Source: a bacterium
GTDB lineage: Bacteria > RBG-13-61-14 > DATKZS01
Length of the DNA: 64,000 bases
Direction: 5' to 3'
Assembly (NCBI GenBank): GCA_963674965.2
Contig: CAXXFL010000002.1
Location: 352,001-416,000 of the forward strand
Part shown: positions 7,959 to 14,119 of the stretch, in pieces
Numbering within the stretch: the stretch's first letter is position 1
Layout: every line of letters begins with the position of its first letter
Translations under genes and position numbers: made by a program
Notes under the pieces: model-generated
Databases searched by the model: none
Told to the model about the DNA's origin: nothing
Seen by the model: the letters and a program-made list of their open reading frames with translations, nothing else

Positions 7959-8299
7959 TAATATCATATTGCAAAGTCCCGCTTTGGACTGCGGCGGCTC
8001 GACGCCGCTTTTCTTCCGAGCGGCTTGACGCGAGGCAAACCGCTGTATTGATAGGCCTTGTCAACCCAAGGCCATCGAAAGCGGCTATGACGCCAGGAAA
8101 AGGACTTTTGCAAGAATCTCAGAAATTGACCTGTCTCGCTGGATGACCGCAGTGTCCAAAAATCATGAAGATAATGGCGGGCTATTTTCTTCTTGACAAT
8201 CCCTAAAAGCCGTGCTTGATTGGCAAGTGGGACCGCTGTCCTGGATAATGCCACACTTAATATACATGGAGATAGTAGACAACAATAATAGGAGAAAAC

Positions 8300-9166
8300 A
8301 TGAGCGTTCAGATACCGTCATATGATTCCCTCATGAACCCAATTTTAGAGGCACTTTTCTCTTTAGGCGGCTCTGGGTCTATAGATGAAATTTATGAAAA
8401 AGTACTTGAACTTCAGCATATTGGGGATGATATTTCATCGATATTACACAATCCCGACAGGAGCAACCAAACCGAAATAGCTTATCGACTTGCTTGGGCA
8501 AGGACTTACTTGAAAAAATATGGCTTCTTGGAAAATTCCAGCCGCGGAGTGTGGGCTCTAACCAAACTGGCTAAAGAGAAAAAACATGTTGTTCCCCAGG
8601 AAGTTGTGAAAAAAATCAGAACCGAATGGAAGGAGAAGGTTGAAAAGTTAAACAAGGATATAAATGAAGAAGGAGACTATGAAGTAGAAGAGATTGAAGT
8701 CCAGGACTGGCGGGAGGATTTGTTTAATATTCTTACAAAAGAGATATCTCCGGATGTTTTCGAAAGACTTGCCCAGCGACTTTTAAGAGAATCAGGTTTT
8801 GTTCAAGTGGAGGTCACCGGACGTACGGGTGACGGTGGGATCGACGGCAAAGGGATAGCCAGGATTCATGGGTTTATGAGTTTTCATGTGATATTCCAGT
8901 GCAAAAAATATCAGGGGAGTGTCTCCGCCGGAGACATAAGAGATTTTCGAGGAGCCATGGTTGGCCGAGCCGACAAGGGATTGTTTATTACAACGGGGAC
9001 CTTTACCCCTGCGGCAATTAAAGAAGCCACGCGTGATGGAGCACCTCCAATCGATCTCGTGGATGGGGAGCAGCTAGCCAATAAGTTGAAGGAATTTGAA
9101 TTGGGAATTAAGACTCAGATGATCGAGAAAGTGACCGTTGATAAAGAGTGGTTCTTGAATATATAG
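8300..9166 (+). CDS. mrr: Mrr-family type IV restriction endonuclease
   Basis: Mrr N-terminal domain (YRLAWARTYLKKYG) and catalytic GDGGIDG...QCKKY...GLFITTGTFT...IDLVDG; AGGAG RBS; much more AT-rich than the core genes. Confidence 0.92.
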   Translation: MSVQIPSYDSLMNPILEALFSLGGSGSIDEIYEKVLELQHIGDDISSILHNPDRSNQTEIAYRLAWARTYLKKYGFLENSSRGVWALTKLAKEKKHVVPQEVVKKIRTEWKEKVEKLNKDINEEGDYEVEEIEVQDWREDLFNILTKEISPDVFERLAQRLLRESGFVQVEVTGRTGDGGIDGKGIARIHGFMSFHVIFQCKKYQGSVSAGDIRDFRGAMVGRADKGLFITTGTFTPAAIKEATRDGAPPIDLVDGEQLANKLKEFELGIKTQMIEKVTVDKEWFLNI

Positions 9167-9170
9167 AAAA

Positions 9171-10622
9171 CGGCGTAAGCCGCGGGCTGAGTTCCCCTTG
9201 CCGCGTGGAATCCTGCCGCTCCGTTCGATCGCGATTAGAACCTCGTCAGACTCTTTTGCTTCCTAGACCCCCAGCCCGTTCGCTTCGCTCACCCACGCAA
9301 GATGCGTGGGCGACCCTGATTTGTGCCGTGGTTGGAAATCAGGCAATGAGCTTCAAGCCGGGGTCGCCCATGCATTCTGCATGGGCGGCGTAAGCCGCGG
9401 GCTGAGTTCCCCTCGCCGCGTGGAATTCTCCCGCTCCGTTCGATCACGATTAAAACCTCGTTAAACTCTTTTACTTCCTAGACCCCCAGCCCGTTCGCTT
9501 CGCTCACCCACGCAAGATGCGTGGGCGACCCTGATTTGTGCCGTGGTTGGAAATCAGGCAATGAGCTTCAAGCCGGGGTCGCCCATGCATTCTGCATGGG
9601 CGGCGTAAGCCGCGGGCTGAGTTTCCCTGGCCGCGTGGAATTCTCCCGCTCCGTTCGATCACGATTAAAACCTCGACAAATTCTTTTACTTCCTAGCCCC
9701 CCAGCCCGTTCGCTTCGCTCACCCACGCAAGATGCGTGGGCGACCCTGATTGAATATAGGAGTATCTGATTTCTGGTAAGGCGACAATTTTTAACATAAT
9801 ATGCTAGATTAAAGACCGTATTGAAGGAGGGGATATGAAATATATTTTATTGTTATTTTTACTTTTAATCACAACTAATTGTACATCATCATACAACAAT
9901 AGAGGAAATGACATGTTGAAAGATCAAATAAGCAAAGAGAAAATCGACAATCTAATAGAAGATGTACTTAAGGAAGATAAATTAGGCGGACAAATTAGTA
10001 ATCTTTACATAAGATATAATTATCTAAATGATGACATTCTGAGACTAAAGCCTGATGGCCGTATAAATGGCGTGGGACCCTGGAAATACGGATATTGGAT
10101 TATTACAGAAAAAACCAATAAAGAGTTTTCAATGCGGTATAGCTATGATATAAATAGGGCGGAAATATTGCACATATCCGTTGACTTCATGATTGATGGC
10201 GACTATAAGCCAATTAATTGGAGCATGATAATTTTAGCCCGAGAGAATCCATTATAATTATGGGTCGGGGTCGCCCATGCATTCTGCATGGGCGGCGTAA
10301 GCCTCGGGCTGAGTTCCCCTGGCCGCGTGGAATCCTTCCGCTCCGTTCGATCACGATAGAAACCTCGTCAAACTCTTTTACTTCCTAGCCCCCCAGCCCG
10401 TTCGCTTCGCTCACCCACGCAAGATGCGTGGGCGACCCTGATTTGTGCCGTGGTTGGAAATAAGTCAATGAGCTTCAAGCCGGGGTCGCCCATGCATTCT
10501 GCATGGGCGGCGTAAGCCGCGGGCTGAGTTTCCCTGGCCGCGTGGAATCCTGCCGCTCCGTTCGATCACGATAAAAACCTCGACAAATTCTTTTACTTCC
10601 GAGACCCCCAGCCCGTTCGCTT
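9171..10622. repeat. Tandem array of five 215-bp-period REPIN-like palindromic units interrupted by a cargo gene
   Basis: GGCGTAAGCC recurs at 9172, 9387, 9602, 10294 and 10509. Full 171-bp inverted-repeat units GGGTCGCCC...GGGCGACCC lie at 9361-9531, 9576-9746 and 10268-10438; the first and last units are truncated; 44-bp spacers at 9317-9360, 9532-9575 and 10439-10482. Confidence 0.95.
9835..10257 (+). CDS. Orphan AT-rich putative lipoprotein inside the repeat array
   Basis: GAAGGAGG RBS; MKYILLLFLLLITTNC signal peptide ending in Cys; 140 aa; no recognised family. Confidence 0.8.
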   Translation: MKYILLLFLLLITTNCTSSYNNRGNDMLKDQISKEKIDNLIEDVLKEDKLGGQISNLYIRYNYLNDDILRLKPDGRINGVGPWKYGYWIITEKTNKEFSMRYSYDINRAEILHISVDFMIDGDYKPINWSMIILARENPL

Positions 10623-10639
10623 TTCCGACCCTCCCGATA

Positions 10640-11803
10640 TTATCCGGCGACCGTTCTTACCAGCCGGCCTTCGGCCTTTCCTTTTTTCCTTTGAATTTTG
10701 ACGTAGGTCCTGCTAGGCTTGCCGCCCGTGTCCAGGGACTCGGCGGCGAAGGCGCCGTGGTTCAGGTAGGCGCCGGCCCGATGTCTCATTTCCTCGGCGC
10801 GGTGGACGTGTCCCATGACCACGATCTTCTGGCCGGTCTGGAAAATCCTCGAGGCGGCCCGGTGGCATGAGCGCCGGTGCCGGTCCCTGTATTCCTTCCT
10901 CCTGCCCGCGGGTTTGATCACTATGGCGGCGAAGGGAAGGCCGATCAGGAGCCAGGCGAGGGGCATGCCCAAAAGAGCGAACAGGAAAAGGGCCGCCACG
11001 GCAGCGGTTGACAGGTAGCGATCGATATACATGCGCCGGATGGCTTCACCCGCGCCGTGCATGGGCGACGCTTTGCCTTCTTCCTCAGGGGGGGGCGCGT
11101 CTTTTCGCCGGGCCGCCAGGCTTGCCTGGCAGGCGATCTTGAGCCCGGCCACCGGGTAGAGGGCTATCATCTTGAGCGCGTGCAGGCGATATTGCAAAAG
11201 CACTCGCGAGAGCACCTGGATGGGCGTTTTCTGCGAGTCCGTAAATGCCTCGTACCTTGGTATCCTGGAGAGGAGGTACTTGTTGACCAGGGTGCTGATG
11301 GGCAGGGCGCTGTCCCTTTTCTTTTGAAGCGCCGTCATTTCGTCAGGCCAGAAAAGGCAGTCCGGGTCATGGGCGTGTCCGTGCTCGACGTGTATTTCGT
11401 CGTCGATGAGGGACTCTCCGAACTTGAGGCTGGACTCGTCCGCTTGAAGCCTTTCGCGAATGGCTTGTCTTACCTCGGGCAAAGAGGTTTCCACGTCGTG
11501 GTTGCCGTGAATCCAGGTGACCGTTCCTCCCCGGACGAGATGCCGGGCAAGGGCCCGGGTGAAATCCGGATGCGAGTCAAGAATCTCGATCGCCCTTGCC
11601 GCGGCCGCCCTCGGGTCGAAACCGTCTCCCCGGCTTCCCTCGAACACCTCCAACTCGATCACGTCGCCGTTCAGCACCAGGTGAGGGACCGGGCCGGGAC
11701 CGGACGCCTCGTCCAGCAGCCTCGCGAAGTCCCTCGAGGCCCGGGCGTCCGATCCCGTCCGCAGATGAAGGTCACCCACGATAATATAGCTATCGGCCTT
11801 CAT
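10640..11803 (-). CDS. Calcineurin-like metallophosphoesterase with a hydrophobic membrane segment
   Basis: GDLH, NGDV, GNHD, HGH and GHVH motifs. Start trimmed to MKADSY (11803), which has a GAGGT RBS. Confidence 0.85.
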   Translation of the reverse strand: MKADSYIIVGDLHLRTGSDARASRDFARLLDEASGPGPVPHLVLNGDVIELEVFEGSRGDGFDPRAAAARAIEILDSHPDFTRALARHLVRGGTVTWIHGNHDVETSLPEVRQAIRERLQADESSLKFGESLIDDEIHVEHGHAHDPDCLFWPDEMTALQKKRDSALPISTLVNKYLLSRIPRYEAFTDSQKTPIQVLSRVLLQYRLHALKMIALYPVAGLKIACQASLAARRKDAPPPEEEGKASPMHGAGEAIRRMYIDRYLSTAAVAALFLFALLGMPLAWLLIGLPFAAIVIKPAGRRKEYRDRHRRSCHRAASRIFQTGQKIVVMGHVHRAEEMRHRAGAYLNHGAFAAESLDTGGKPSRTYVKIQRKKGKAEGRLVRTVAG

Positions 11804-11814
11804 GACGCCGGCGA

Positions 11815-13329
11815 TTACCTCGATACGGGGGCCCGGTCGTGGCCGTGCCTTTTTTGCTCGGGGCCATCCACCTTGGCCGCCTTGGAGTCCTTGCCTTCCT
11901 CCTCGAAGAACTTGCCCATCCTGTCGGAGAAAAACTCGTTCACGTCCAGATAGCCTAAAAAGGGAACGAACACCTTTCTGCCCGACTCGTAATCGGGCCC
12001 CTCCCAAACCGGATCGGACACCTTTTTGTAAGCCTGGGAATAGCGGTCTAAATGTGCCGTGACCACCGGGTCCTCGATGACCGACTCGCCGCCGTCATAA
12101 GTGGCGACCGCCCCGTGCTCCTTGGCCAGGGACCTCAGCACCTCGGGATGGTCGATGATCATGCAGCAGCGAAGCAGGTTCTGTGAGTAGGGCTGGGCCT
12201 TCCGAATGGCCTTGAAAAAGGGCGAGCGGAAAATCTCGGCCAGACTGTGGTCCTTGATGTTGTGGGTGGCGAACTGGGCGAAGGTGCAGGGCTGGACCAT
12301 GCCGTCGGGAGAAATGAAGCAATAACGGCTGGCGGCCATGCAGCCGGCTATGCAGGGACCGTCGTTCCAGAAGTCGCCGAAGAAGAAGGGCTTGGTTTTC
12401 CTCCACTCGACGATCTTTCCCCGCAGCTTGTCGCGCTGCTCGGGAGTGGGCATCATGGTCACGTCAGGGTCGCGGCCGATGGGGATATAGTTGAACATCC
12501 AGGCGAACAAGGCACCCTTGCCGATGCACATGTCGAGGAAATCGTCCGTGCAGATGGTGTCGCTGTTCTGCAGGGTGGGGGTGATGCTCACGCCGAACAT
12601 GACGCCGTGCTCGCGCAGGTTGTCCATGGCCCGCATGGTCTTGTCGAACACGCCCTCGCCCCGGCGGTCGTCGGTCAGTTCCCTGTAGCCCTCGATCGAG
12701 ATGGCGGGGAAAACGTTGCCAAGCTCGGCCAGGCGGGCCGCCGCCTTCTCGTCTATAAGCGTGCCGTTGGTATAGGTTAAAAAGGTCAGGTCGTTGAACT
12801 CCTCGAAGATTTCCATGATGCGCTTGTAGATGAAGGGCTCGCCGCCGGTAAGGGTGATGAAGCGCATGCCCAGATCGCGTCCCTCGGAAAGGGCGCGGCG
12901 GAGAAGGTCGTGGTCCATGGTTTCCCGGTTGTATTTATAGGCCCAGCAACCCTTGCAGCGAAGGTTGCAGGCCATGGTGGGATTGAGGACCATGGTGAAA
13001 GGAGGAAGGAACCCCTCGTCGAAAAGAGGGTTGAACACGATCTCTTTCCTCTTGGCCACCACGGAGATGATGAGGTTCTCGACGAACTTTTTCCACGGCG
13101 TCTCGCCCAGGCTCGAGGCCGTCCTCAGCGCCCAGCCGATGAACATGGGGTTGTCGTTTAATAACTTTTCCAGGTACGCCTCGACCCGGCCGGAAAGTTG
13201 CGAGTCCCCCGAGCCGTTCCCCTTTATTTCGCCCGCGCTGCCCGCGACCCTCGCGATGGCGCCGTTTATCTCTTCCTGAGTAAGTCCGGCCATCCTGCCG
13301 GCCTCCATAATCTTTTCCAATGTCCGCAT
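11815..13329 (-). CDS. Radical SAM protein with SPASM/twitch-like C-terminus
   Basis: CNLRCKGC, TGGEP, TNGT, GCMA...QPC...CCMII; AGGAGG RBS. Confidence 0.9.
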   Translation of the reverse strand: MRTLEKIMEAGRMAGLTQEEINGAIARVAGSAGEIKGNGSGDSQLSGRVEAYLEKLLNDNPMFIGWALRTASSLGETPWKKFVENLIISVVAKRKEIVFNPLFDEGFLPPFTMVLNPTMACNLRCKGCWAYKYNRETMDHDLLRRALSEGRDLGMRFITLTGGEPFIYKRIMEIFEEFNDLTFLTYTNGTLIDEKAAARLAELGNVFPAISIEGYRELTDDRRGEGVFDKTMRAMDNLREHGVMFGVSITPTLQNSDTICTDDFLDMCIGKGALFAWMFNYIPIGRDPDVTMMPTPEQRDKLRGKIVEWRKTKPFFFGDFWNDGPCIAGCMAASRYCFISPDGMVQPCTFAQFATHNIKDHSLAEIFRSPFFKAIRKAQPYSQNLLRCCMIIDHPEVLRSLAKEHGAVATYDGGESVIEDPVVTAHLDRYSQAYKKVSDPVWEGPDYESGRKVFVPFLGYLDVNEFFSDRMGKFFEEEGKDSKAAKVDGPEQKRHGHDRAPVSR

Positions 13330-13437
13330 AATTCCTCCTGAAAGCGAAAAAGCGCGTCAAGTCGCGCGCTTGCCCGTCTTCTCCTTTTTTTCTTCGCCGA
13401 GCCAAATTTCACTCGGCTCTCTTTTTGTCCCGCTTGA

Positions 13438-13766
13438 TTTAACCCCTGGTAAAACCCTGTTCTATGGAGCCATAAGTAAATGATAAATATATTAAACCGC
13501 CTTCTAGCGGGTCGTCTTCGTCGTTTTTTCGACCTCTTTTTATCCTACAAGTTTCAAAAATATGATTGAATTTGCAATCGGCTAAATCCCCATTAAACCC
13601 TTTTACCTAAGGGTAAAGATATTTTACCAACCAGTAAGTAAATTATAAAATATTCTGAAAACAAGTTTAACCGGGTGGTAATAAACCCCGACATATTTTT
13701 TTTATGGTGGTAGTCTAGACCCTCAAGAAGCGTTTGTCAAGTAACTTATGCTTACCGTATGGTTAA
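13438..13766. promoter_or_regulatory. Five copies of the palindrome TTTACC-N4-GGTAAA (putative transcription-factor operators)
   Basis: TTTAAC-CCCT-GGTAAA (13438), TTTACC-TAAG-GGTAAA (13602), TTTACC-AACC-AGTAAG (13623), TTAACC-GGGT-GGTAAT (13667), CTTACC-GTAT-GGTTAA (13751), in an AT-rich divergent intergenic region. Confidence 0.65.
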
Positions 13767-14119
13767 ATAACAAATTGAAAATAAATGAATATTCCAGAAT
13801 AATGTTTGTTCGGCGAGCGGTTGCAGAATATGCAAAACATAGAATTGGCCGGGATTAAAATATTATGATAAATCGGAGGCAATACGCCGAATAAAAAAAG
13901 AGACAACGATAATCGACTTGAAAAAAATACTATATAATTATAATCAGACGTGACGGTAATCAACTTGGTCGCGCGACTCATTTGATAAGGCCCCTCAATA
14001 CAAGATTTTTCAATTTTCCTCGGATAACCTTCGTTCCCAACCATGCGTCTATTGACCGCGCAAAAAATATGCATGGCGCACCGGCCTGTGTTATACAAGG
14101 AGAAAAGGAGGAACGGACA

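What the first reader, a model, noticed from the sequence alone, without database searches (positions are those of the whole stretch)
9171..10622. Palindromic repeat array in which one spacer is swapped for a whole gene: a candidate cassette-capture system
Seen: five units with an exact 215-bp period. Each full unit has inverted arms (GGGTCGCCCATGCATTCTGCATGGGCGGCGTAAGCCGCGGGCTG versus the reverse complement of CAGCCCGTTCGCTTCGCTCACCCACGCAAGATGCGTGGGCGACCC). Each arm carries its own hairpin (CCCATGCA-TTC-TGCATGGG and CCCACGCA-AGA-TGCGTGGG). The arms are almost invariant while the loop between them accumulates substitutions. Three gaps between units hold a near-identical 44-bp filler, itself a CCTGATTT...AAATCAGG hairpin in two copies. 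The fourth gap (9747-10267, 521 bp) keeps the filler's first TGATT and last CG but holds an AT-rich gene with its own RBS. Both array ends have lost just the outermost hairpin. Established: REP/REPIN hairpins are substrates of HUH-family RAYT (TnpA-REP) enzymes. Inference: the outward-facing hairpin pair acts as a slot that can be empty or loaded with foreign DNA, an integron-like gene-capture array without attC sites, with the enzyme encoded elsewhere.
Basis: partly seen in the sequence, partly recalled or inferred. Interest (0 to 1): 0.85.

Follow-up and report, generated by a model that had tools for sequence, protein, structure and literature searches.

The report
Palindromic repeat array holding one gene
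This is a tandem cluster of a genome-wide family of small palindromic repeats of the REP/REPIN kind, and the one foreign-looking gene sitting between two of its units appears to be a single accident rather than part of a gene-capture system.

Summary
Five units with a 215-bp period lie at 9171-10653, and a 521-bp low-GC segment carrying a 140-aa lipoprotein-like ORF sits where the fourth 44-bp filler should be. Short-read contigs confirm both gene/arm junctions at single-copy depth.

The array is not a special locus. It is one of 37 clusters (113 arm sites, 37 complete units) of a dispersed family. The two ~46-nt hairpin arms are conserved (0.89/0.91 mean identity) and the centres are unrelated (0.44). 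Several recurrent linker modules give a BIME-like mosaic.

In sister genera, bona fide REP-associated tyrosine transposase genes are bracketed by arms built the same way. This genome has no such gene above the model's cut-off, and none flanked by these arms.

The cassette-capture idea lacks support:
- Only 1 of 32 outward-facing end pairs holds a low-GC gene.
- No integron integrase was found.
- No empty allele or circular form was seen.

Best reading: an ordinary REPIN/BIME-type array with one linker replaced, once, by foreign DNA. Interest is modest.

The parts
8300..9166 (+). Mrr-type restriction endonuclease gene (288 aa), low GC (0.38-0.50). Its stop codon lies 4 nt before the first repeat base.
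   Evidence: Pfam Mrr_cat 9.4e-31 and Mrr_N 5.2e-17. GC profile.
9171..9316 (+). Unit 1, lacking the outer 25 nt of its L arm (register start 9146).
   Evidence: In-register identity of columns 1-25 is 9/25, P = 0.18.
9317..9360 (+). Filler 1 (44 nt, contains the CCTGATTT/AAATCAGG hairpin).
   Evidence: The same filler type also lies at C2:208857-208902 outside the window.
9361..9531 (+). Unit 2: complete 171-nt unit (L arm, centre, R arm).
9532..9575 (+). Filler 2, identical to filler 1.
9576..9746 (+). Unit 3: complete.
9747..10267 (+). 521-bp low-GC segment (GC 0.32) in place of a filler. It shares only TGATT (5') and CG (3') with the filler. There is no other copy in the genome.
   Evidence: no filler remnant: shuffle control 0.41. 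A 574-nt read contig spans 9722-10295 at depth 33 against 30 and 27.6 in the flanks.
9835..10257 (+). ORF of 140 aa with a signal peptide and a Cys16 lipobox-like site. Function unknown.
   Evidence: No Pfam or NCBIfam family. One credible homolog, P0002 (26% identity, E = 4e-15 pairwise; E = 1.9e-6 library-wide).
10268..10438 (+). Unit 4: complete.
10439..10482 (+). Filler 3 (2 differences from fillers 1 and 2).
10483..10653 (+). Unit 5: L arm and centre as in the other units. From 10612 it carries an alternative right terminus without the hairpin.
   Evidence: 20/36 in-register matches, P = 1e-4. The same terminal variant is present at 3 other loci.
10640..12007 (-). Metallophosphoesterase-like ORF (455 aa, host-like GC). 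Its last codons overlap the terminal repeat module.
   Evidence: Pfam Metallophos 1.5e-6. Coordinates.

Best explanation
The 215-bp array is an ordered tandem cluster of a lineage-specific, non-autonomous palindromic repeat family of the REP/REPIN/BIME kind.

Anatomy. The conserved modules are two inverted arms of about 46 nt. Each arm begins with GGGTCGCCC and overlaps a 9-bp hairpin. The arms alternate in orientation along the DNA and are joined by two kinds of linker. One is a centre of about 80 nt that differs between subfamilies. The other is a short filler of 34-44 nt taken from a small set of recurrent modules.

Enzyme. By analogy with sister genera, such arms are the recognition structures of a REP-associated tyrosine (HUH/Y1) transposase acting on single-stranded DNA. 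Ordered arrays arise by tandem amplification of a unit together with its flank. This genome's assembly holds no cognate enzyme, so the population may be orphaned.

The ORF. The low-GC 140-aa ORF is not part of the repeat system. It is a compositionally foreign single-gene islet.

History (inferred, not shown). Most probably an already existing array of five or more units was split once. At one R-filler-L junction, 514 bp of foreign DNA replaced 37 bp of filler. That junction is itself a strong palindrome with the filler as its loop. The likely route is illegitimate recombination after breakage or stalling at the palindrome, not a dedicated capture enzyme.
For: A dispersed family:
- 81 matches to one 215-bp period in the genome.
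- 113 arm sites in 37 clusters and 37 complete units of 161-174 bp.
- Other ordered arrays at C5:348120-350168 (10 units), C7:767215-767801 (3 units) and C5:570488-571431.

Conserved arms, unrelated centres: mean pairwise identity is 0.89 and 0.91 for the arms against 0.44 for the centre, over 14 loci with one representative each (alignment).

BIME-like mosaic:
- Both isolated L-centre-R units and isolated R-filler-L doublets occur.
- Filler modules recur at unrelated loci.
- A recurrent alternative right terminus exists.

Link to RAYT:
- The G001 protein scores 107.3 bits on NF047646 against a cut-off of 80.
- It is bracketed by inverted arms with the GGGTGGCCC...GGGCCACCC layout.
- G004 shows the same, and 4 of 4 family relatives have a RAYT over the cut-off.
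- G003 carries repeat units with co-varying termini.

One-off nature of the gene:
- 1 of 32 outward-facing pairs is loaded.
- The ORF is single-copy, and the insert has no other similarity in the genome.

Array first:
- Divergence across the gene (u3-u4, 8/176) resembles that of neighbours within each side (6/176, 8/190, 8/140).
- u3 is closest to u5 (5/140), so the two sides are not separate lineages.
- The filler right of the gene matches those on the left at 42 of 44 positions.

Published parallels:
- Ordered tandem REPIN clusters that include flanking sequence are described in PMC3116915 (passages).
- Tandem BIME-2 copies with variable linkers are described in PMC3333891 (passages).
Against: - No cognate RAYT was found in this genome. 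The best NF047646 match is 75.3 bits, below the cut-off, and it is flanked by a different inverted repeat. Yet the arms are well conserved, which is unexpected for a long-orphaned population.
- The insert is exactly flush with the element ends on both sides. A random break-and-join event does not predict this.
- A GGGTCG hexamer is duplicated at the 3' junction and is unexplained.
- Ku was not found, so classical end-joining is unlikely. Any joining would have to go by another route.
- The order of events rests on about 5-12 substitutions per comparison, which is weak.
- The only homolog of the ORF is also a single-gene low-GC islet at a different locus in a sister genus. This hints that the gene family moves by some means I did not identify.
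Confidence: 0.6

Rival explanations
1. Gene first. The low-GC ORF, perhaps together with the low-GC mrr gene as one acquired island, was resident. Repeat units then colonised the intergenic space on both of its sides and were amplified there. On this view the 'interrupted array' is really two adjacent clusters.
For: - REP-type elements typically lie just downstream of coding regions, according to the abstract of PMC3733652. Here the L arm begins 10 nt after the stop codon, and 88 nt with a ribosome-binding site are left upstream.
- Flush boundaries follow naturally if whole elements were inserted beside the gene.
- Both sub-arrays begin and end with a unit, and fillers occur only between units.
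- mrr next door is also low GC.
- A second small low-GC ORF lies beside a cluster at C3:521950.
Against: - The units on the two sides are no more alike within a side than across the gene. Within-side differences are 8/190, 11/151, 6/176 and 8/140. Across the gene they are 12/190, 10/115, 10/215, 9/140, 8/176 and 5/140.
- Both sides carry the same filler and the same alternation of unit variants: u2/u4 against u3/u5 share states at columns 49, 101 and 106.
- This reading needs the same unit-filler-unit block to have arrived twice.
Confidence: 0.25
2. The R-filler-L doublet is an exchange site at which a RAYT-type HUH enzyme cuts at or near the feet of the two hairpins and joins in foreign single-stranded DNA. 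Repeat arrays could then acquire genes.
For: - E. coli TnpA-REP cleaves at CC|T beside the inverted REP and at C|T in linkers, and it carries out strand transfer that creates new linkers (PMC3333891, passages).
- The R end here reads ...GACCC|TGATT.
- The insert replaces just the linker and is flush with both ends.
- The ORF's only homolog is likewise a single-gene low-GC islet elsewhere in a sister genus. A 14-nt match to a filler module lies 125 bp from it.
Against: - Only 1 of 32 sites is loaded.
- No RAYT over the cut-off exists in this genome, and none lies beside these arms.
- TGATT is retained 3' of the putative C|T cut, which is not what a join at that cut predicts.
- The G003 filler-like match is weak. 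Its local alignment scores 44 against a null 95th percentile of 43, and the reversed-pattern control also hits once.
- In G003 the gene is not enclosed by arms.
- No excised or empty forms were seen.
Confidence: 0.08
3. Assembly artefact: the ORF belongs elsewhere, or to another organism, and was threaded into a collapsed repeat.
For: - The source runs look like a metagenome.
- The repeats break short-read contigs, and no listed contig spans the whole stretch.
Against: - A 574-nt contig joins the ORF to 25 nt of R arm and 28 nt of L arm. Depth is 33 and 18.6 against flanks of 30/27.6 and 15.9/15.9 in two runs of one sample.
- Those arm variants (AAGA and TTC loops) are 100% matched only in this array and at C6:469346.
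- The arm family was found in no other collection: 0 hits in two metagenome scans and 1 stray hit in the genome scan.
Confidence: 0.03

Closest known systems
REPINs and their RAYTs (REP doublets forming hairpins; Bertels and Rainey 2011, PMC3116915)
   Same: - Two inverted hairpin-bearing repeats are separated by a spacer and fold into one long hairpin.
- There are tens of dispersed copies.
- Ordered tandem clusters of nearly identical units include their flanking sequence.
- In sister genera a single RAYT gene is flanked by the same kind of arms.
   Different: - The units are longer (171 nt, arms about 46 nt with an outer and an inner hairpin).
- The centres are unrelated between subfamilies.
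- No cognate RAYT was found in this genome.
- One inter-unit linker is a whole gene, which the passages I read do not describe.
E. coli BIME-2 and atypical BIMEs, with TnpA-REP (Ton-Hoang et al. 2012, PMC3333891)
   Same: - REP-like palindromes alternate in orientation and are joined by two alternating linker classes.
- Tandem copies at a locus are nearly identical.
- Linkers vary between loci and are drawn from a few motifs.
- A CC|T sequence lies at the foot of one arm.
   Different: - Sequence and size are unrelated to the E. coli y/z REPs, and there is no GTAG tag at the hairpin foot.
- Binding and cleavage are untested here.
TIRtrons and TIR repeat families (RAYT-like genes flanked by long terminal inverted repeats; Di Nocera et al. 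2013, PMC3733652)
   Same: - In G001 and G004 the RAYT gene is flanked by long inverted arms rather than by short GTAG REPs.
- A moderately abundant family of such arms populates the genome.
   Different: In the window's genome the repeat family is present without its transposase gene.
Integron cassette arrays
   Same: Only the picture is shared: repeated structured sites with a gene between two of them.
   Different: - There is no IntI.
- There is no GTTRRRY-type core at the boundaries.
- Only one gene is present, and the gaps otherwise hold a constant filler.
Insertion sequences that target REPs (Tobes and Pareja 2006, PMC1525189; ISPpu9, PMC8450116; both seen only as search listings and abstracts)
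   Same: Foreign DNA is inserted within or between REP palindromes.
   Different: The insert here encodes no transposase and has no terminal repeats of its own.

Membership tests
REPIN/RAYT system | [quoted passage not shown] | tested here: met
   Arms as. DNA folds have z = -5.1 (unit) and -6.0/-6.2 (doublet).
REPIN/RAYT system | Many dispersed copies in the genome, as singlets, doublets and ordered clusters. | tested here: met
   113 arm sites, 37 clusters and 37 complete units. Whether every copy is extragenic was not systematically tested.
REPIN/RAYT system | A cognate RAYT gene in the same genome, flanked by the same repeats. | tested here: not met
   NF047646: 4 matches, 0 over the cut-off, best 75.3 bits. 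0 of 5 Y1_Tnp loci have the arms within 3 kb. The feature is met in relatives G001 and G004 for related arms. The assembly is 97.6% complete, so absence is not proven.
REPIN/RAYT system | Conserved GTAG (or CGTC) tag at one foot of the REP hairpin. | tested here: not met
   Read directly from the alignment. The termini are GGGTCGCCC/GGGCGACCC. GTAG appears only inside the inner loop of one subfamily.
REPIN/RAYT system | Evidence of mobility (excision, insertion polymorphism). | not testable with these tools
   Only contigs of two runs from one sample hold the locus. No close relative is held.
BIME-type mosaic element | Palindromic units in alternating orientation at regular spacing, with two alternating linker classes, tandemly repeated. 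| tested here: met
   The L> R< L> R< architecture appears. Centres are about 80 nt and fillers 34-44 nt.
BIME-type mosaic element | Binding by host proteins (IHF, gyrase, Pol I). | not testable with these tools
Integron | An IntI-type tyrosine recombinase with attI next to the array. | tested here: not met
   TIGR02249: 15 matches, 0 over the 265-bit cut-off, best 84 bits, none in the window.
Integron | attC sites with inverse core and core (RYYYAAC / GTTRRRY) at cassette boundaries. The motif is recalled, not taken from a call. | tested here: not met
   Boundaries read directly...GGGCGACCCTGATT| and |CGGGGTCGCCC. No covariance model for attC was available, so this is a motif check only.
Integron | Several different cassettes in series. 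| tested here: not met
   1 gene in 4 gaps of this array, and 1 in 32 outward-facing pairs genome-wide.
MITE of a DDE-type insertion sequence | Target-site duplication, and a full-length element with the same terminal inverted repeats. | tested here: not met
   No duplication is visible in the flanks of 37 units. No inward-facing arm pair encloses a gene-sized segment.

The most novel reading that the evidence does not exclude
The R-filler-L doublet of this repeat family could be an exchange site for a RAYT-type single-strand transposase, at which the linker can be swapped for foreign DNA. REPIN/BIME arrays would then occasionally acquire whole genes. On this reading, the small low-GC lipoprotein gene family is cargo that moves in this way. 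That family is known from only two genomes of one bacterial family, and in each it is a single-gene islet at a different locus.
Probability: 0.08. Interest if true: 0.8.

Novelty: new member of a known kind. Interest (0 to 1): 0.35.

Why it matters
REP/REPIN/BIME elements are known mainly from Proteobacteria. This is a well-resolved family in a sparsely sampled lineage whose family holds only four other genomes in the collection searched. It has long double-hairpin arms, interchangeable linker modules and a defined alternative terminus. Its transposase appears to be present in sister genera and missing here, which makes it a useful case for studying how such repeat populations persist or decay. 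The gene-sized linker shows that foreign DNA can end up exactly between two such palindromes. If that recurred in other genomes it would point to a new route of gene acquisition. On present evidence it is a single event.

Tried and rejected
- **Rfam** on 8000-12000 gave only three sub-threshold mir-504 look-alikes on the R-filler-L palindromes (26.7 bits against a gathering score of 57). I rejected these as chance.
- **Public collections** gave almost nothing for the repeat:
  - The genome-contig scan with the arm pattern gave 1 stray hit in an unrelated organism.
  - Two metagenome-contig scans, with the outer and the inner arm pattern, gave 0 hits each.
  - 40 relatives searched with the 215-bp unit gave one 29-nt match.
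- **Filler remnant inside the insert:** the local alignment is no better than shuffles (0.41).
- **Function of the ORF** stayed unresolved:
  - Pfam and NCBIfam gave nothing.
  - The word-indexed search found only the protein itself.
  - The exhaustive search found 4 further hits. P0003-P0005 are wHTH-repeat proteins that match one short motif, so I set them aside as spurious.
  - The best Atlas score was 0.80, which is lead level only.
  - The AlphaFold2 model, built on a 2-sequence alignment, has mean pLDDT 47.6. That is too poor, so no fold search was run.
- **RNA evidence:** no RNA holder was listed.
- **Empty allele or circular junction:** the laid contigs showed none. The 'skips' and the 'goes back 1276' joint carry the centre of the paralogous locus C6:1137563, so I did not count them as excision products. 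Contigs cannot show rare forms.
- **Association of repeat clusters with low-GC DNA:** a 300-bp window below 0.40 GC lies within 1 kb of 8 of 37 clusters, against 11% of random sites. This is a modest excess that I do not lean on.
the flanking metallophosphoesterase has no match at E <= 1e-10 in the 4 family relatives, so the ancestral state of the locus could not be read.
- **G003 locus:** the genes downstream of the LolA-like gene in this genome are not found in the 7.6 kb fetched, so the insertion there could not be delimited.
- **Ku** was not found in an assembly that is 97.6% complete.
- **Earlier findings** of this scan: the look-up returned nothing.
- **Supplementary figures** of the papers, such as the REPIN cluster schemes and BIME linker tables, were not seen. 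They might show long or unusual linkers.
Full report
**1. The observation**

- The repeat finder places five copies in register with spacings of 215, 215, 692 and 215.
- Tandem Repeats Finder reports 9171-9751 (period 215, 2.7 copies, 96% matches) and 10266-10652 (period 215, 1.8 copies, 87%).
- Each full unit is 171 nt, from GGGTCGCCC to GGGCGACCC. It has two imperfectly inverted arms, and each arm holds a perfect short hairpin.
- Three gaps hold a 44-nt filler. The fourth gap, 9747-10267, is 521 bp at GC 0.32 and holds ORF 9835-10257 behind a GGAGG site.
- Among the five units, 15 of the 18 variable columns lie in the centre, 1 in the arms and 2 in the filler.
- The folds of the unit and of the R-filler-L doublet beat all 200 shuffles (z = -5.1, -6.0 and -6.2).

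Independent short-read contigs from two runs of one sample support the anatomy.
- A 574-nt contig spans 9722-10295, covering both gene/arm junctions. Its depth is 33 and 18.6, against 30/27.6 and 15.9/15.9 in the unique flanks.
- Other contigs cross both outer ends of the array.
- The number of units could not be verified from contigs.

One correction concerns the array ends.
- The left end is a plain truncation (9 of 25 in-register matches, P = 0.18).
- The right end keeps register (20 of 36, P = 1e-4). It is a terminal variant that also closes units at C2:735454, C2:134017 and C6:1137563.

**2. What the repeats are**

The array is one locus of a genome-wide family.
- One period finds 81 matches in the 6.5-Mb genome.
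- A census with the two arms gives 113 arm sites in 37 clusters and 37 complete L...R units of 161-174 bp.
- The census includes a 10-unit array at C5:348120-350168, a second copy of that locus at C5:570488, and a 3-unit array at C7:767215.
- Element ends are sharp and the flanks differ from locus to locus.
- Over 14 loci, the arms keep 0.89 and 0.91 mean pairwise identity while the centres fall to 0.44. There are at least six unrelated centre types.

The organisation is a mosaic.
- The short fillers between units are not locus-specific. The window's filler recurs at C2:208857-208902 between units with a different centre.
- Other filler types recur at several loci.
- Both isolated L-centre-R units and isolated R-filler-L doublets exist.
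- This matches the organisation of BIMEs: palindromic units in alternating orientation, joined by two alternating linker classes and tandemly amplified (PMC3333891, passages).

**3. The enzyme question**

The genome has five Y1_Tnp matches. None has an arm motif within 3 kb. No inward-facing arm pair encloses a gene.

The family is nearly confined to this genome among what could be searched.
- The 215-bp unit gave 1 weak match in 40 relatives.
- The genome collection gave 1 stray hit.
- Two metagenome scans gave 0 hits each.
- The inner-arm motif does occur in two of four same-family genomes: G003 four times and G001 once, against 35 times here.
- G003 has full units whose two termini have changed together, GGGTGGCCC...GGGCCACCC.

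The relatives carry a RAYT with matching arms.
- In G001 a 180-aa protein scores 107.3 bits on the NCBIfam model for REP-associated tyrosine transposase, against a cut-off of 80.
- That gene is bracketed by inverted arms with the same layout: the terminus followed at once by a hairpin.
- G004 shows the same.
- All 4 of 4 family relatives have a RAYT over the cut-off.
- Of the five best relatives' loci inspected, two have GGGTGGCCC/GGGCCACCC termini, one has a near variant, and two are flanked by other repeats.

The window's genome lacks this enzyme in the assembly.
- It has no match over the cut-off (best 75.3 bits).
- That gene is flanked by an unrelated 24-nt inverted repeat.
- The G001 enzyme finds only this weak match (E = 0.0018).

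The repeats are therefore of the RAYT-associated kind. In this assembly, which is 97.6% complete, their own enzyme is missing.

**4. The enclosed gene**

- The ORF has a signal peptide with a cysteine at position 16 and no family assignment.
- It is single-copy in the genome.
- Searches of 5.8 billion and 1.84 billion proteins gave one credible homolog, P0002 (26% identity over 137 residues).
- The same 133-aa sequence is encoded in relative G003.
- There too it is a low-GC islet (0.30-0.36 in surroundings of 0.6-0.65).
- In G003 it lies 38 bp downstream of a LolA-like gene and is not enclosed by arms.
- In the window's genome the LolA-like ortholog lies elsewhere (C6:147550-148329) and is followed directly by another gene.
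- So the two known members of this small family sit at different loci in two genera, each as a single-gene islet.
- A 14-nt match to a filler module lies 125 bp from the G003 gene. The reversed control pattern also hits once, and the extended alignment is at the null's 95th percentile. I treat this as a weak lead only.

**5. Is there a capture system?**

- Of 32 neighbouring outward-facing end pairs in the genome, 28 enclose 18-190 bp of linker. Three enclose 781-2236 bp of ordinary-GC DNA. One, the reported site, encloses a low-GC gene.
- Of 86 intact termini, the two lowest-GC flanks are the two sides of this ORF (0.27 and 0.36). The next lowest is 0.41, at C3:521950, where a 66-aa low-GC ORF lies beside a cluster but is not enclosed by one.
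- No integron integrase is present.
- The insert has no terminal repeats, no filler remnant and no relative in the genome.
- The laid contigs show no empty site and no circle. The odd joints carry the centre of the paralogous locus C6:1137563.

**6. How the gene got there**

Two histories compete.

*Array first.*
- Units across the gene are as alike as neighbours within a side: u3-u4 differ at 8/176, against 6/176, 8/190 and 8/140.
- u3 is closest to u5 (5/140).
- The unit variants alternate in the same way on both sides, and the filler on the right matches those on the left at 42 of 44 positions.
- This points to one array that was later split. The counts are small.

*Gene first.*
- Flush boundaries are then expected.
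- The position of the L arm 10 nt after the stop codon is typical of REP elements.

I favour array first, at about 2:1. I infer a single illegitimate replacement of the loop of the R-filler-L palindrome. This mechanism is not shown. Ku was not found, and the duplicated GGGTCG at the 3' junction remains unexplained.

A RAYT-mediated exchange cannot be excluded. TnpA-REP cuts at CC|T beside inverted REPs and within linkers and performs strand transfer, and the R end here reads ...CCC|TGATT. However, the retained TGATT lies on the wrong side of that putative cut, and no enzyme is at hand in this genome.

**7. Verdict**

It is best filed as a new family within a known kind, REPIN/BIME-type repeats tied to RAYTs, carrying one unusual gene-sized linker. 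The integron-like capture reading is not supported, and I give it about 8%. Interest is moderate to low: the lineage-specific family and its apparently missing transposase are worth a note, and the loaded junction is worth rechecking when more genomes of this lineage appear.

Noticed in passing
window 10612-10660; also G000 C2:735454(-), C2:134017(-), C6:1137563(+): A recurrent alternative right terminus of the repeat unit. After CCCGTTCGC the sequence continues into a hairpin-less module. Two of the loci share a further ~35 nt beyond it. In the window the 3' end of the phosphoesterase ORF runs into this module.
   Followed up: partly
L086:1489-1890 (G003:C140, minus strand): The only homolog of the enclosed ORF is also a single-gene low-GC islet (GC 0.30-0.36), 38 bp downstream of a LolA-like gene. 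A 14-nt exact match to the filler of this genome's C5 arrays lies 125 bp beyond its stop codon, but its significance is marginal.
   Followed up: partly
G000 C3:521693-521893 (L085:2194-2394): A 66-aa hydrophobic low-GC ORF lies directly beside a repeat unit and a degenerate R-end remnant. This is a second small foreign-looking ORF next to this repeat family, though not enclosed by it.
   Followed up: partly
G000 C7:626039-626719 (L069:1477-2157): A 226-aa RAYT-like gene (73.9-75.3 bits on NF047646, just under the cut-off) is flanked by a 24-nt inverted repeat (GAAATCTGGGGACAGCATACTTAA) unrelated to the arms studied. A strongly AT-rich 372-aa ORF follows it.
   Followed up: partly
G000 C5:348120-350168 and C5:570488-571431: Two arrays of the same subfamily share the same 40-nt left flank. 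The whole locus therefore seems to have been duplicated about 220 kb apart.
   Followed up: no
G000 C2:133985-134168: A hybrid hairpin is formed by the 5' half of an R-arm stem and the 3' half of an L-arm stem, with the filler missing. It looks like a deletion between the two hairpins of an R-filler-L doublet.
   Followed up: no
window 8100-9166: The Mrr-type restriction endonuclease gene next to the array is itself low GC (0.38-0.50 against 0.58 genome mean). It ends 4 nt before the truncated first unit, so it may be a second foreign insertion that cut the array.
   Followed up: no
L070:2678-2850 (G000 C7, about 509.5 kb): Another palindromic element has 26-nt arms containing GTAG (GAGTAGCCGTAGGCC...). 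It lies near a 308-aa RAYT-like/DnaA-C-like gene and may be a second repeat family.
   Followed up: no
L086:960-1149 (G003): A 190-bp palindromic element with 34-nt arms (94% complementary) of a different sequence family lies 340 bp from the ORF homolog.
   Followed up: no
window 11815-13329 and 13001-14000: A radical SAM/SPASM-domain gene lies next to the locus, followed by a 1-kb stretch of GC 0.445. It may be a peptide-maturase neighbourhood.
   Followed up: no
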